Counted from the first letter of the whole stretch, positions 18,316 to 42,979 are shown. The stretch is 63,724 nucleotides of DNA, filler included, from Kipferlia bialata (GCA_003568945.1; 6 parts of 6 records of this genome joined end to end with filler, not necessarily neighbours in it); one strand, 5' to 3'. The notes: generated by a model not told the origin, from the sequence alone. Numbers and translations: made by a program.

Positions 18316-18589
18316 CGAGTAGTGTCTGGTAGAAACGTGATTGTTCAAGGATGCTTCCGAAGCTGTGCGAAGCTGCGACTTATGGTATCAGCGTCTGAAG
18401 GTTTCAACCCAGAATCTGAAGCTACCAATTGTCTGAAACACAAATCATCTCAACAGTTACATCACAATGCATACGGCGCCATGGCTGAAATGACAAGTCA
18501 AAATTTACTCTAGAACGAGGGAGACAAATAGAAATCGGAAACACGTGAAACATGGACATAAAGTATTGTCGAACTGGCAGTTCAACTGC

Positions 18590-18611
18590 CCCTCACAGTG
18601 AGGGCCTCACT
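18590..18611. mobile_element. Putative DNA-transposon excision footprint, T=CCCTCACT
   Basis: CCCTCAC-AGTGAGGG-CCTCACT = T[1-7]+revcomp(T)+T[2-8]; a variant scar lies adjacent at 18571-18590. Confidence 0.6.
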
Positions 18612-18750
18612 TCTTGACCTTGGTCTTCAGGGGTCCAACCCCTGCTAAAGACACTGTCCACACAGCCAGTAAGACAATGACCACCACTGAGGTGATGGAG
18701 ACTGGGGTGGTGCCCTTGACGCCTCTGTTCTTGACGAGGATGCCTAAGGT

Positions 18751-18789
<39 letters not shown>

Positions 18790-19273
18790 CGGGGGGGGGG
18801 GGGGGGGGGGGGGTCACGAATAGCTTCCCGACACCATACCGTGATCATAATAGCCAGAAGCTGCACAAAGTACCTTGAACAGTGCCTTCCAGAAGGTGAC
18901 ACCGACATATGAAACCCTCCTACCCACTACACGTCACATATACACACAGACCCTACCTCCACATTCCTCTTGAACTTTGACCTGGTCAGACTGTGCTGGA
19001 TAAAGTCAAGGGCATCTCTAGGGGTTAGTATAGGTTAGTATTCAGGAAGAGAGACTGGATAGATATGGACTGAGAGACAATATCCGGTCAGATGCACTTC
19101 TCTGCGGCGATATGGTCCTCTGACACCACCCTCACCTGCCGGATATGTCCTTGACAGACGATATCTGGGGCAGAGCGGGGAGGGATGGCATGGTCTCCCA
19201 AGATATGCAGGTCAAGAGAGGTCCTGACATGAGATACGTGGGATACTGTTGATCTGTCAGAAAACATCTCCAT
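18607..19273 (-). CDS. Possible small protein with C-terminal transmembrane helix
   Basis: Last exon can read GILVKNRGVKGTTPVSITSVVVIVLLAVWTVSLAGVGPLKTKVKK*; upstream exon phases could not be fully reconciled. Confidence 0.3.
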
Positions 19274-19602
19274 ACTGGATTATAGTACCCACAATGTACA
19301 GATATACCACACTAATAGCACTCACACTGTGGTGTGGGTCAGAACACAGGGGAGTCTCGGTTCTCTGTAGTGGCAGAGGAAACAGCTGGAGCTGCGAGAT
19401 GCCTTCTCTCTGTTGGCACAAAAACTGTAGGGGTGTAGACTCGAAGACGGATTTGTCCCAGCGAATTGTTCATCGTCTCTAATTGTTCTGTCCACTGGCT
19501 TTTTTGACCATATCTGCTCATTTCGTCTTCAATGAACGTAGAGCGCAGAGTATTCCCACAGACGGATTTAGACGGGATTGAACTAGAACAGGATAGTGTC
19601 AG

Positions 19603-19624
19603 GTCCTAAGTTAGGACTCCTAAC
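19603..19624. mobile_element. Putative excision footprint, T=GTCCTAAC
   Basis: GTCCTAA-GTTAGGAC-TCCTAAC. Confidence 0.6.
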
Positions 19625-19984
19625 AGTATATACTCCTAACATAGGAGTCATTCACTGACTGGCAAAAAGAAATTTTTGGAATGAGTCGAATAATGAGTCA
19701 CTCACCTAGAGTGTGTTCTATTGATATAGATATAAGATATTAGACACAGTAGACACTATAGACATAGGGACTCTTCTTGTAAGACGTGTTGCTCCAAGTC
19801 TAGGAGGCATATACTTCCCACCCTTGACCCTGTATGTATTGCCCACGAGTTGCCTCAGAGGTGGAACCGTGCCTCTGTTCCCTTGGGCCACTCTGTGTGC
19901 ATCATGACTGGGCGCAGGTCGAGACCAGGTCTGGTGTTAGAGGGGTGGTAGAGCAGGTATCAATTACTGAATCTGGCCCAGGCC

Positions 19985-21250
19985 ATCACACCAACCCTGG
20001 GGTTGGTGTGATGGTATAGTAGGATTCAATCTTCCAATCCATACACCAGTGCCTGTGGCTTCTTAAAGGAAGGAAGTACCAATACTAAGACAATAGGGAT
20101 TAGTCATATGGACGTAGTACGTCACGTACACTCTGTCAGGGTGGGTGCTCCACTGGGAGTAGACACCAAGGCGGCTGAAGATCTCAGGCTTGAAGCCATC
20201 GGGCCTGGGTCAGTTCACCAGTGACATATAGAGCTACAATGGCTACATACTATTGGTATATCGACGAAGAGGCCCGTACCTGATACCACTCCCTAGCAGT
20301 GCCTCCACTTGACGCAGTGTCTTCTGCAGATAGGCATGGTCTCTGAAGTCTGGGCACCTCACACACACGATGTACATCCTGACATGGCCGTCGTCACACA
20401 GCTGCCGTTAGTCTAATGTGGATATATATACTCTAGAAATAGCTCATGATAGAACTTCTATCATCGAAGATATGATAGAATGTCGTCGTATAGTGGTATA
20501 CCGTTGAACAGGCCCTACCTTGGGGACGCAGGAGCAGGCACAGCCCAGAAGATTGTGTCTGTCTCCGTCGATGCCATTCACAACAGCCCGTGCCACCTTG
20601 GGCCACACTGTATCAATCTGATGGTAGTGGACAGTGTTCACTGAACACCCTACATAGTATAGTATTGTAGTGTACACCCAAGGTAAGAGGACTCAACACT
20701 ACTCCTATTACTGTAGAAGTGTATACACATGCTACTTACGTCTCTGGGTACAATCGGTATCAACAGCTTTGTCTGTGTGTGGCCAAGTGGGACAGTGGCA
20801 GCAAGGATCCTGTCTCTTACATCCTGTGTGTGAATCACAATGGGATACACTGAGAATTCTTTGTGGACATATACTACCCTAGAAGTTCAATCTCATTCAT
20901 GACCTGCTTGTACTCATCTGTGGGGGCCTTGTTCTGCAAGAACATGTCCACGATGCTCTTGTACTGAGGCAAGGCTCTCACTGTTTCGAGGTCGTAAGGA
21001 ACAGGGTTGTTCAGGTGGTTGGCTACCATCAGGCATCTCACTCTTCCGTCATCCCTTCGCTGCTCTGATGGAATGTGGTGGGCCAGGTAGTCCTCAATAG
21101 CCTCGCTGGTGCCGTCGAAGTGGATACGGACCTGATTATTGGGATACAATTGTAAAAGAGATATAGTATCGGTTTGGCAACTATATGTATGTGCAGAACA
21201 GATTGTACCTTTGGTGGCTGGTCCTGGTGGTATCGGCTCTGAGCGTACAT
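19985..21250 (-). CDS. DUF1917 / UPF0696 (Bles03/C11orf68-like, eIF4E-like fold) protein
   Basis: Spliced motifs HQIDTVWPKVARAVVNG, YIVCVRCPDFRDHAYLQKTLRQVEALLG and GFKPEIFSRLGVYSQW follow the family pattern D..W..va.a...G / icVy..Df.D / yKpD.yT.LGiY. Last exon uncertain. Confidence 0.65.
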
Positions 21251-40716: not shown

Positions 40717-40823
40717 NNNNNNNNNNNNNNNNNNNNNNNNNNNNNNNNNNNNNNNNNNNNTTAATTAATTAANNNNNNNNNNNNNNNNNNNNNNNNNNNN
40801 NNNNNNNNNNNNNNNNGGGGGAG

Positions 40824-40869
<46 letters not shown>

Positions 40870-41708
40870 GGGGTAGGGGGGGTTGAACAACACAGGCTAG
40901 GGATACTCAGGGCACCTCAGTGTTTGTTTATATATCATATATTCTGAATACCTTGATTCACCCTGTGTGTATCCAATGAGTCCAGGGGGACGATGCGCGG
41001 GGGGGGGGAGAGAGCCAAACGTCAGATGGTATATGGCGATATGTGCGGAAGGGGGGGGGGGGAGTACCCGAAGAATATAAGGGCAAGGGCAGTATCTTAT
41101 ATAAGTGGAGTGCAAGAGAGATCACATGCAGGTAGATACGGCAATATATCGTACTGGTACGATTCCCTTCCGGCATCAGTACCAGTCTCTAGGTTGGTTG
41201 GGGGGGCACGCACATCAATATGCATACATATAATATAATATGGATACGGGCCTAACCGGATCTAGACACACTAAATGTAGCACCAAAGGCTGATATGAAG
41301 TATGATACTGTTACTCCGAAAACTCCGTCCATACGTATATCCAACCCTCAACAACTCCTGCATCTTACAGGTTGTTATATAGAACACCACATGCACTGAA
41401 GTAGTGGGCATAGACACTACACTCACGCCTAGAAGACGGAAAACAGTGTATTCTAATCGAGGTACCAACTTGGGGGCAAGCCACAATATAATAAGGACAT
41501 ATTAGTACCTGCTCTCCCAAACACACGACTCAACCAAGTAGCAGGGTCCCCTACGGTTCCTAAAGACGCTAACTGGTAAGGAGCCAGCGGAGCTTCCATC
41601 GAGAAAGAAAGGGTGTAGACAAACAAAAATTCTACTTGAGTCAGTCTCAGTAGTGCTGGATCCATAGTATGAATATTAAGGAATGCTGCGAACTTGCGGC
41701 CATGTATG

Positions 41709-41730
41709 GTAAGCATTGCTTACTAAGCAA
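41709..41730. mobile_element. Putative excision footprint, T=GTAAGCAA
   Basis: GTAAGCA-TTGCTTAC-TAAGCAA. Confidence 0.6.
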
Positions 41731-41911
41731 CTCCTAAATATTCCGAGTAGGTCTTCAGCGGTATACTGATAGCTGTAGACATTGTCTACAGCGTAGACAA
41801 CGTATACTCGAGAGGGATGAGATTGGTGAAGGCCTCAAGTGGAAGATTGTCCTCTGTACAGTGTAATGGAGTCTCCAATGGCACACTCCCCCTCTACTAC
41901 TTTAGAGAAAC

Positions 41912-42889
41912 ATGGACGATGACACACCAGTAACCATGAGCACTACGCGTCTGCGCCTCTTACAACACATCATCCCCCCTGTGCTCCTTGACGAGTGGGA
42001 TGAGTGGGCCCTGGGTATGACACGGGTCACCCCCAACAGCGTTTGTGTGCTGGCACGTGCCCGCTGTGCTGCCTACCTCAGCGATGAGCGGGCACTGTAC
42101 CTCTATACAGTAGAGGATGACGGGCTCTCACGTGAATCTCTCAGTGTTCCCTATGATGTGTGTGATGGGGGAGCCTTTGCCAACGCCCTCACCTGCACAG
42201 AGTCCCACCTCGCAGTGACAAGCCCTAGGATGGGTGCAGTACACATCATGGCACTAGACACCCGGAAGTGGACGGAGGTGCCAGTACCTGATGTGTTGAG
42301 GGATGCGTGGCGTCCTGATGTTCACGAAATCCTCTCCTCACCCCTGGTGTCTCTCTTCACCATTGGCGGCACGGTGTACGCTGTCTCCTTCTACTACCGG
42401 CAGTGCTGGTCCATTGACACCTCCACCATGGAGACTGTCATCTGTGAGGCACCTCCTCTGCTACTGCAGCGCTCCCAAAGGACAGCCTGGTGTCCTGAGT
42501 GTGTGTGTAATGGACTCGCGCACTTCTTCCTCTCTGGTACCCACCTTACCTTCTCCCCTGTCACAGGATGGAGCGAGGAGTCGGTGAGCCTCGGCAAGGC
42601 CTCTGACACCTGGGCTGTGTCCCTGGGTAAGTGGGGTGACTCACCAGTGATAGTGTCACCCGTCGAGTCCGGCCTGCACATGCTGGACGAGGTCACTGGG
42701 GAGACAGGGCTCGTAGGGATCGAAGGAGTGCCTTGGGACCTCGACGCCCCAGCTGGGGTGGCACCAGCCTGTGGCCTCGGGTATCGGTCACTCGTCACCC
42801 TCTCTGACCCCACCTACATGGATGTCTGTGACTTTGACGGCCCAGTGTGGACCATGCTATACCAGAGTCTCCCACACATGCGTGCTTGA
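41912..42889 (+). CDS. Intronless divergent kelch-like protein (325 aa)
   Basis: Complete ATG-to-TGA ORF with coding-like composition; motifs HIMALDTRKWTEV, FTIGGTVYAV, HLTFSPVTGWSE, MLDEVTGE. Confidence 0.75.
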   Translation: MDDDTPVTMSTTRLRLLQHIIPPVLLDEWDEWALGMTRVTPNSVCVLARARCAAYLSDERALYLYTVEDDGLSRESLSVPYDVCDGGAFANALTCTESHLAVTSPRMGAVHIMALDTRKWTEVPVPDVLRDAWRPDVHEILSSPLVSLFTIGGTVYAVSFYYRQCWSIDTSTMETVICEAPPLLLQRSQRTAWCPECVCNGLAHFFLSGTHLTFSPVTGWSEESVSLGKASDTWAVSLGKWGDSPVIVSPVESGLHMLDEVTGETGLVGIEGVPWDLDAPAGVAPACGLGYRSLVTLSDPTYMDVCDFDGPVWTMLYQSLPHMRA

Positions 42890-42957
42890 GAGTGTTGTGG
42901 TTTGCATGTGACCGCTTTCCTCTCTATCTCGGTTGCTGATATATGAGGTGTCCAGTG

Positions 42958-42979
42958 GTCAACGACGTTGACTCAACGT
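42958..42979. mobile_element. Putative excision footprint, T=GTCAACGT
   Basis: GTCAACG-ACGTTGAC-TCAACGT. Confidence 0.6.

What the first reader, a model, noticed from the sequence alone, without database searches (positions are those of the whole stretch)
18571..42979. Recurrent exact 22-bp inverted-triplication scars: footprints of a hairpin-forming DNA transposon
Six non-coding or gene-edge sites have exactly T[1-7]+revcomp(T)+T[2-8] for an 8-bp T: 18590, 19603, 22730, 22916, 41709 and 42958. The pattern fixes 14 bases (about 4^-14 per position), so even one is unlikely in 60 kb. Established: hAT elements make 8-bp target duplications and excise via hairpins on the flanking DNA, leaving inverted P-nucleotides; GTCCTAAC and GTAAGCAA fit the nTnnnnAn hAT target preference. 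Inference: both hairpins opened beyond the duplication and annealed through the inverted copy, a stereotyped microhomology-type repair product. The density implies very frequent past excision although no element is visible here. Shorter variants occur at 18571-18590, 20111-20130 and 26284-26300.
Basis: partly seen in the sequence, partly recalled or inferred. Interest (0 to 1): 0.72.

Follow-up and report, generated by a model that had tools for sequence, protein, structure and literature searches.

The report
Uniform transposon excision scars in Kipferlia
Non-coding DNA of the protist Kipferlia bialata carries repeated 22-base scars of one fixed design (an 8-base word, its inverted copy, the word again), likely left each time a cut-and-paste jumping gene jumped out and this cell, reported to lack the usual end-joining repair, would have mended the break in the same way; the jumping gene itself was not found.

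Summary
All six sites are exact and a seventh (17452) was missed: 7 in the window, 0 in 200 shuffles, 0 in 959 kb of control DNA. Exact sites peak sharply at 8-bp words (two at 7, none at 6 or 9-15). Both centre bases are the complement of the lost base (15 of 16). The words favour GTnnnnAC, like the Hermes hAT target. The window is several joined contigs of the fornicate Kipferlia bialata, which is reported to lack Ku, Lig4 and Artemis but to keep Pol theta, SNM1/Pso2 and Mre11-Rad50. Best reading (0.8): hAT-type excision hairpins both flanks one base into the 8-bp duplication. The duplication then gives one microhomology register, so most openings converge on the same 7-8-7 scar; opening beyond the duplication is not needed. 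No element, transposase, or empty or filled allele was found, and the genome could not be searched. The hairpin chemistry is known from Ac/Ds; uniform, dense scars were not found in my paper searches. This scan noted the same scar before in Perkinsus-like genomes (unchecked notes); here it is in a distant lineage with published end-joining loss.

The parts
17452..17473 (.).
   Evidence: LRR exon at 17024-17416 minus
18571..18589 (.). Exact 6-7-6 scar, word GAACTGC, directly abutting the next scar
18590..18611 (.). Exact 7-8-7 scar, word CCCTCACT; its right copy holds the stop codon that closes the minus-strand frame 18607-18813
19603..19624 (.). Exact 7-8-7 scar, word GTCCTAAC; likely intergenic
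20111..20129 (.). Exact 6-7-6 scar, word GACGTAC; likely intron
20448..20469 (.). 7-8-7 scar with one mismatch, word GATAGAAG
20627..20648 (.). 7-8-7 scar with one mismatch, word GTGAACAC
22730..22751 (.). Exact 7-8-7 scar, word GATGTAAC; upstream of KIPB_004400
22916..22937 (.). Exact 7-8-7 scar, word CCTGAGAT
25603..25621 (.). Weak candidate: 6-7-6 form with one mismatch, inside a spliced-out stretch (25527-25663)
   Evidence: this class occurs at about 0.65 per 62 kb in control DNA
26284..26304 (.). Likely 9-bp-word scar whose right copy lost 4 bases; inside a spliced-out stretch (26191-26359)
38741..38776 (.). 9-bp-word scar (CTCATAAGA) with both centre bases complemented and two inverted copies; the left palindrome runs 3 bases past the word into the flank (arm 11)
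38823..38893 (.). One-mismatch 7-8-7 scar (38823-38844) followed by a chain of single-base-centred palindromes; likely repeated events at one spot
41709..41730 (.). Exact 7-8-7 scar, word GTAAGCAA; about 180 bp upstream of a 325-codon open frame
41773..41800 (.). Either a 10-bp-word scar with one mismatch, or a 9-bp word with a long left palindrome and no right one
42958..42979 (.). Exact 7-8-7 scar, word GTCAACGT; about 70 bp downstream of the stop of the 325-codon frame
43051..43069 (.). Weak candidate: 6-7-6 form with one mismatch
27121..27220 (.). Artificial spacer between two contigs (44 N, a 12-base stop-codon palindrome, 44 N); not biological
40717..40816 (.). Artificial spacer between two contigs; not biological

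Best explanation
The 22-bp sites are fixed-geometry scars in non-coding DNA of Kipferlia bialata, likely the excision footprints of an unseen hAT-type DNA transposon, whose hairpin-capped flanks would have been rejoined by microhomology-mediated end joining. Steps: (1, inferred) the element inserts at a GTnnnnAC-like 8-bp word T and duplicates it. (2, established hAT chemistry; the geometry is shown here) on excision each flank is nicked one base into the duplication and sealed as a hairpin, so the left end reads T1-T7 then revcomp(T), and the right end reads revcomp(T) then T2-T8. (3, inferred) a host nuclease (SNM1/Pso2 or Mre11-Rad50) opens the hairpins p and q bases from the tip, leaving 3' overhangs. 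(4, modelled) whenever p+q exceeds 8 the two overhangs share p+q-8 terminal bases in one register set by the duplication, so all such joins give the same 7-8-7 product, a net gain of 14 bp. (5, inferred) without Ku and Lig4 the short near-tip joins seen in plants and Candida would be disfavoured, and Pol theta with Lig1 would seal the paired ends. Precise reversion through the direct repeat, or repair from the homologue, would leave no trace, so this is the dominant visible outcome, not necessarily the only one.
For: 7 exact sites against 0 in 200 shuffles and 0 in 959 kb of control DNA. Exact sites by word length: 0 at 6, 2 at 7, 7 at 8, 0 at 9-15. Of 12 geometries tested at length 8, the one that loses one base on each side has 7 sites, three looser ones have 1 each and eight have 0. 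In 8 sites found by their 6-bp inner arms alone, 15 of 16 centre bases are the complement of the lost base, the feature described for Ds footprints (PMC5873905; one-base overhang then hairpin, PMC2921059). Half-sites of ten 8-bp words: G at position 1 in 12 of 20 (p=5e-4), T at position 2 in 12 of 20 (p=1.6e-3); Hermes prefers 8-bp nTnnnnAn (PMC10368747). At 38741 the palindrome extends into the flank beyond the word, as a real hairpin would. Toy model: of 169 opening pairs per site, 90-100 give 7-8-7, 0-23 another product, 50-69 have no microhomology of 2 or more bases. K. bialata has no entry for Ku70, Lig4, Artemis or CtIP and has entries for Pol theta, SNM1/Pso2, Mre11, Rad50 and Lig1 (PMC8516963 Supplementary Data 2). 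0 of 17 sites lie in open frames of 100 codons or more, which cover 52% of the three contigs. Sites cluster: 11 of 16 on one contig (P=2e-4) and 5 gaps of 200 bp or less (P=0.011 given the per-contig counts), as local hopping would give.
Against: No transposase fragment among 407 open frames scanned with Pfam (260 of 75 codons or more over the whole window, 147 shorter ones in the scar-rich parts). No credible element with a duplication and terminal inverted repeats in the window. No empty or filled allele in the assembled contigs of run X1, so the insertion is not polarised by any ancestral copy. Only 2 of 7 exact words (3 of 10) fully match nTnnnnAn. Words of 7, 9 and perhaps 10 bp occur, which needs a sloppy or a second element. 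Plain 6-bp tandem duplications (the blunt-join form) are about twice the shuffle mean (30 against 15.8), so other outcomes may exist; the short classic footprints have about one chance hit each, so that test is weak. The open-frame test is partly circular because a 14-bp gain itself breaks frames. The same table gives K. bialata no PARP, XRCC1 or Lig3, so its alternative end joining is incomplete by animal standards. The toy model uses my own scoring and ignores snap-back of the palindromic overhangs.
Confidence: 0.8

Rival explanations
1. The same flank-hairpin route, but made by a Mutator-like (MULE) element, or by a mixture of a hAT (8-bp words) and a MULE (9-10-bp words).
For: Muta1 forms hairpins on flanking DNA, and MULE duplications are 8-10 bp (PMC5499845). 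Three sites fit 9- or 10-bp words (26284, 38741, 41773), and none of them is an exact simple triplication.
Against: More than 90% of Muta1 excisions in yeast are precise, and its 86-nt hairpin from a 43-bp flank gives no sign of a lost base. Exact sites at 9-10 bp: 0. The word preference fits Hermes.
Confidence: 0.1
2. No stable insertion: a transposase re-excises straight after strand transfer and 7-base gap filling, or a domesticated or host nuclease makes 8-base staggered cuts whose filled ends are sealed as hairpins. The ends, and so the scar, would be identical.
For: About one scar per 4 kb with no element in view; two scars abut at 18571/18590; domesticated hairpin-forming hAT enzymes exist (Kat1, PMC4763223, abstract start only).
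Against: Short-read contigs break at or collapse repeats, so missing elements prove nothing; 62 kb is about 0.1% of a 51-Mb genome. No known host nuclease gives an 8-base stagger with this preference (recalled).
Confidence: 0.05
3. Replication template switching or Pol theta snap-back synthesis: the new strand turns back twice and copies 8 bases in inverted orientation, with no transposon.
For: Such events also give inverted triplications (recalled). The species keeps Pol theta. The complex chain at 38823-38893 and the extra copy at 38741 could be templated insertions.
Against: It predicts varied lengths and loop sizes. Seen instead: one length peak, one symmetric geometry, complemented centre bases in 15 of 16, and a symmetric word preference. 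0 sites in 959 kb of control DNA.
Confidence: 0.04
4. Library or assembly artefact.
For: Only one sample is available, and run X1 may be the source of the window.
Against: Public-run contigs reproduce 10 of the 17 sites letter for letter at mean depth 430-470. Sites avoid long open frames and some carry later substitutions.
Confidence: 0.01

Closest known systems
Ac/Ds (hAT) excision footprints in plants, S. cerevisiae and C. albicans (PMC5873905, PMC2921059, PMC1978519)
   Same: Palindromes centred on the complement of the base next to the element; 8-bp duplication; microhomology at 85-100% of joins in Arabidopsis and 88-89% in budding yeast.
   Different: Those footprints are heterogeneous and mostly short (at most 3 palindromic bases in Candida; 28 types among 128). 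Here one long product dominates across unrelated words, as natural scars in a genome, in a species reported to lack Ku and Lig4.
Hermes (hAT) target preference (PMC10368747)
   Same: 8-bp target with T at position 2 and A at position 7.
   Different: Here G1/C8 is as strong as T2/A7; no element or transposase is in hand.
TcBuster (hAT) footprints (PMC3499496)
   Same: Flank hairpins and 8-bp duplication.
   Different: Target nnnTAnnn is not favoured here (T at position 4 in 6 of 20 half-sites); its footprints are small NHEJ-type indels.
Muta1 (MULE) of Aedes aegypti (PMC5499845)
   Same: Flank hairpins; 8- or 9-bp duplication.
   Different: Excision is mostly precise; no evidence for a lost base.
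7-8-7 scars noted by this scan in Perkinsus-like genomes (e1-7223343 and others; unchecked AI notes)
   Same: Same formula and same proposed origin.
   Different: A distant lineage (Metamonada); lower density here (7 exact in 62 kb against dozens to over a hundred per window in those notes); loss of end joining is published for this species.

Membership tests
hAT excision footprint | 8-bp duplicated target word | tested here: met
   7 exact and 3 one-mismatch sites at length 8; 0 exact at 6 and 9-15, 2 at 7
hAT excision footprint | Palindrome centred on the complement of the base next to the element, at both ends | tested here: met
   15 of 16 centre bases in 8 sites found without using those bases; feature as described in PMC5873905
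hAT excision footprint | Target preference nTnnnnAn (Hermes type) | tested here: met
   T at position 2 in 12 of 20 half-sites, p=1.6e-3; full match in only 3 of 10 words
hAT excision footprint | Resident element with terminal inverted repeats and 8-bp duplication | tested here: inconclusive
   None credible in the 62-kb window; genome not held
hAT excision footprint | hAT transposase encoded in the genome | not testable with these tools
   No genome; none among 407 window frames; no mention in the searched supplements of PMC5874029
hAT excision footprint | Empty (single word) or filled allele at the same site | tested here: inconclusive
   No indel or break at the 10 covered sites; only contigs of one sample, which drop variants
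MULE excision footprint | 8-10-bp duplication | tested here: met
   8-bp words dominate; three sites fit 9-10 bp
MULE excision footprint | Hairpin without a lost flank base; mostly precise excision | tested here: not met
   0 sites with the no-loss geometry at lengths 5-12; precise excision cannot be seen in one genome
Transib/RAG coding-joint type | 5-bp duplication and even (no-loss) palindromes (recalled) | tested here: not met
   0 no-loss sites at length 5, and no excess of one-loss sites at 5
Microhomology-mediated (alternative) end joining product | Join explained by terminal microhomology, in a host without Ku and Lig4 | tested here: inconclusive
   Toy model converges on the observed join; gene absences taken from PMC8516963, not re-tested; a join with p+q equal to 8 and no homology gives the same letters
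Replication template-switch triplication | Variable length and loop geometry | tested here: not met
   One length peak and one geometry

The most novel reading that the evidence does not exclude
The scars come from hit-and-run cutting with no lasting insertion: a transposase or domesticated hairpin-forming nuclease makes 8-base staggered breaks at GTnnnnAC-like words and reseals the filled ends as hairpins. In eukaryotes without Ku this would be a standing mutational process that stamps thousands of fixed 14-bp insertions on non-coding DNA, arisen separately in fornicates and in Perkinsus-like protists.
Probability: 0.08. Interest if true: 0.8.

Novelty: new variant of a known kind. Interest (0 to 1): 0.45.

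Why it matters
If right, each visible excision leaves a self-identifying mark from which the target word can be read back. That gives a countable record of past transposition and target preference even when the element is gone or unassembled (roughly 6,000 exact scars if the window's 7 per 62 kb held over 51 Mb; likely an overestimate, since sites cluster). It also gives a natural read-out of break repair in a lineage reported to have lost classical end joining, whose authors expect homologous recombination to do most repair. It makes a simple prediction testable across eukaryotes: 7-8-7 scars should dominate where a hAT is active and Ku/Lig4 are absent. The chemistry itself is known, which limits the surprise.

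Tried and rejected
Whole genome: not held, so no genome-wide scan and no transposase search. Candidate 28530-31087: rejected, it spans a many-intron host gene. Pfam scans of 407 frames: no transposase. Protein atlas on the frame 39204-39650: low recognition, uninformative. Homologue searches of two neighbouring proteins: each found only itself. Metagenome search with the alcohol dehydrogenase domain: 80 loci, best 57% identity, no close relative; used only as a negative control. No RNA holder on record was listed. Short classic Ac-type footprints: not enriched, low power. The three one-mismatch 7-bp sites are weak. Two-mismatch (2 against 0.3-0.5) and three-mismatch 8-bp hits (9 against 3.7) were left out of all counts; several are shifted readings of listed sites. 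Papers: no paper held all of 'inverted triplication', 'transposon', 'excision', 'hairpin'; 'bialata' with 'transposase' gave one listing on another subject; PMC11787283 and PMC6635534 passages gave nothing on K. bialata transposons or on Perkinsus end joining. Yu 2004 and six other look-ups for key hAT papers were not held, so the exact product may be in print among yeast or hobo footprints.
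Full report
What the window is. It is not one locus. Five 100-base spacers (44 N, a 12-base palindrome, 44 N) at 13522, 27121, 40717, 54309 and 60185 join six contigs. The frame 21570-22364 (minus) is 100% identical to a protein labelled KIPB_004400 of Kipferlia bialata, whose contig length (13,499) equals the piece 13622-27120. 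K. bialata is a free-living fornicate with a 51-Mb, intron-rich, apparently diploid genome (PMC5874029, passages). No whole genome was held, so every count below is on about 62 kb.

The observation. A scan for T[1..L-1]+revcomp(T)+T[2..L], with no filter except N, gave 0 exact sites at L=6, 2 at L=7 (18571, 20111), 7 at L=8 (the six named plus 17452) and 0 at L=9-15. In 200 dinucleotide shuffles made in 300-base blocks there were 0 sites at L=8 and 2 in total at L=7 (AT-repeat-like words dropped from observed and shuffled counts alike). In 959,393 bp of 80 unrelated metagenome loci there were 0 sites at L=8-10 with up to one mismatch, and 10 one-mismatch sites at L=7. Allowing one mismatch adds three 8-bp sites (20448, 20627, 38823; 0.01-0.02 expected), one 10-bp site (41773) and three weak 7-bp sites. 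A general two-hairpin search adds 38741, a 9-bp word with both centres complemented and two inverted copies. Contigs of public run X1 reproduce 18830-27050 in one piece and 41051-42062 in another, with no difference, at depth 470 and 432. That covers 10 of the 17 sites; X1 may be the source of the window, so this speaks against an assembly slip but is not an independent sample.

Anatomy. The geometry is fixed. Of 12 combinations of bases lost at the two inner ends, at L=8 the one-and-one form has 7 sites, three looser forms have 1 each and eight have none. When sites are found by their 6-bp inner arms alone, 8 are found and 15 of their 16 centre bases are the complement of the lost base, where 4 would be expected. 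The ten 8-bp words, read from both ends, have G at position 1 in 12 of 20 and T at position 2 in 12 of 20 (p=5e-4 and 1.6e-3), with no clear bias in the flanks and T at position 4 in 6 of 20. None of 17 sites lies in an open frame of 100 codons or more, though such frames cover 52% of the three contigs (partly circular). Two lie in stretches spliced out in run X2, whose RNA status is a guess. Sites cluster: 11 of 16 on one contig (P=2e-4), 0 on three others, and 5 neighbour gaps of 200 bp or less (P=0.011 given the per-contig counts).

Mechanism. Ds footprints carry palindromes centred on the complement of the base next to the element (PMC5873905, passages), explained by a break with a one-base overhang sealed into a flank hairpin (PMC2921059, passages; PMC1978519, passages). 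Hermes prefers 8-bp nTnnnnAn targets (PMC10368747, passages). Applied to a site with an 8-bp duplication, the left hairpin reads T1-T7 then revcomp(T), and the right one revcomp(T) then T2-T8. Opening them p and q bases from the tip leaves two 3' overhangs that share p+q-8 terminal bases in one register. In a toy enumeration over the seven exact sites, 90-100 of 169 opening pairs gave the observed 22-mer, 0-23 another product, and 50-69 had no microhomology of two bases. So the duplication itself funnels repair to one product, and opening beyond the duplication is not needed. The site at 38741, whose left palindrome runs three bases into the flank, suggests that longer openings also occur. A published survey finds no classical end joining in metamonads (PMC8516963, passages). 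Its Supplementary Data 2 lists for K. bialata no Ku70, Lig4, Artemis, CtIP, PARP, XRCC1 or Lig3, but Pol theta, SNM1/Pso2, Mre11, Rad50 and Lig1 (rows seen; one supplementary PDF of scans could not be read). Pso2 cleaves hairpins in yeast. The gene inventory is taken from that paper and was not re-tested. Shown: pattern, geometry, word bias, clustering. Established elsewhere: the hAT hairpin chemistry. Inferred: the element, the nuclease, the polymerase, and the causal role of Ku loss.

What is missing or against. No transposase among 407 frames. The scan for duplications with inverted ends gave mostly AT-repeat noise and two complex candidates, both rejected as lying in host coding DNA. No empty or filled allele was seen. 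Only 3 of 10 words match nTnnnnAn at both positions. Words of 7, 9 and perhaps 10 bp need an imprecise or a second element; MULEs also hairpin the flanks and make 8-10-bp duplications, but Muta1 excises precisely in more than 90% of cases (PMC5499845, passages). Plain 6-bp tandem duplications are twice the shuffle mean (30 against 15.8) and could hide blunt joins, or be ordinary slippage. Precise reversion and homologous repair leave no mark, so the share of events that end as 7-8-7 is unknown.

Comparison and novelty. It works like an Ac/Ds footprint. Membership of hAT is likely but not shown, because no element is in hand. TcBuster's nnnTAnnn target does not fit (PMC3499496, passages). Experimental Ac/Ds footprints are varied and mostly short (28 types among 128 in Candida, at most three palindromic bases), whereas here one long product recurs on unrelated words. 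Ten full-text searches gave no listing that describes such uniform natural scars or transposons of K. bialata. Key experimental papers (Yu 2004, Lazarow 2012, Colot 1998, Atkinson 1993, Arensburger 2011, Hickman 2018; recalled) were not held, so the single product may be known among their footprints. This scan's own notes report the same formula in many windows of Perkinsus-like genomes (unchecked), and none for this genome. My reading was recorded before I saw them.

Verdict. Real, well above chance, and most likely hAT-type excision scars made uniform by microhomology repair (0.8). A new variant of a known kind; interest 0.45. Its value is as a readable record of transposition and of break repair without Ku, now seen in a second, distant lineage.

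Noticed in passing
window 19602-19633: Another contig of run X1 (record 2, 3,411 bp, depth 463) matches this 32-base stretch with one difference: the whole scar plus ten flanking bases. Either a second scar on the same word elsewhere in the genome or a short dispersed copy.
   Followed up: no
window 13522-13621, 27121-27220, 40717-40816, 54309-54408, 60185-60284: Artificial spacers joining separate contigs; most contig ends are long G or C runs or GA repeats.
   Followed up: yes
window 19983-20014: A palindrome with 15-bp arms and a two-base TG centre. Of the 10 palindromes with arms of 7 or more and a two-base centre, 7 have TG or CA there, as if perfect palindromes had mutated at the centre.
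   Followed up: no
window 32139-32161: A lone single-base-centred palindrome with 11-bp arms in a likely intron; possibly a one-sided hairpin join.
   Followed up: partly
window 56141-58798 (+): Aldehyde dehydrogenase and iron-containing alcohol dehydrogenase domains in adjacent frames, likely one intron-split AdhE gene; best metagenome relatives 49-57% identical.
   Followed up: partly
window about 36720-38437 (+): Many-intron serpin-like gene (Pfam serpin E=4.7e-5 on one exon, below the curated cut-off).
   Followed up: partly
window about 15700-18320 (-): Gene with leucine-rich repeats (Pfam LRR_4 E=4e-6) and a likely signal peptide; the scar at 17452 sits in one of its likely introns.
   Followed up: no
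window 19625-19648: Directly after the 19603 scar, a 10-base direct repeat and a further short inverted copy; possibly a second event at the same spot.
   Followed up: no
window 53770-54255: Tandem array with an 81-base period.
   Followed up: no
window 21570-22364 (-) and 41912-42889 (+): Two long frames next to scars; each found only itself among 5.8 billion proteins of similar length.
   Followed up: partly
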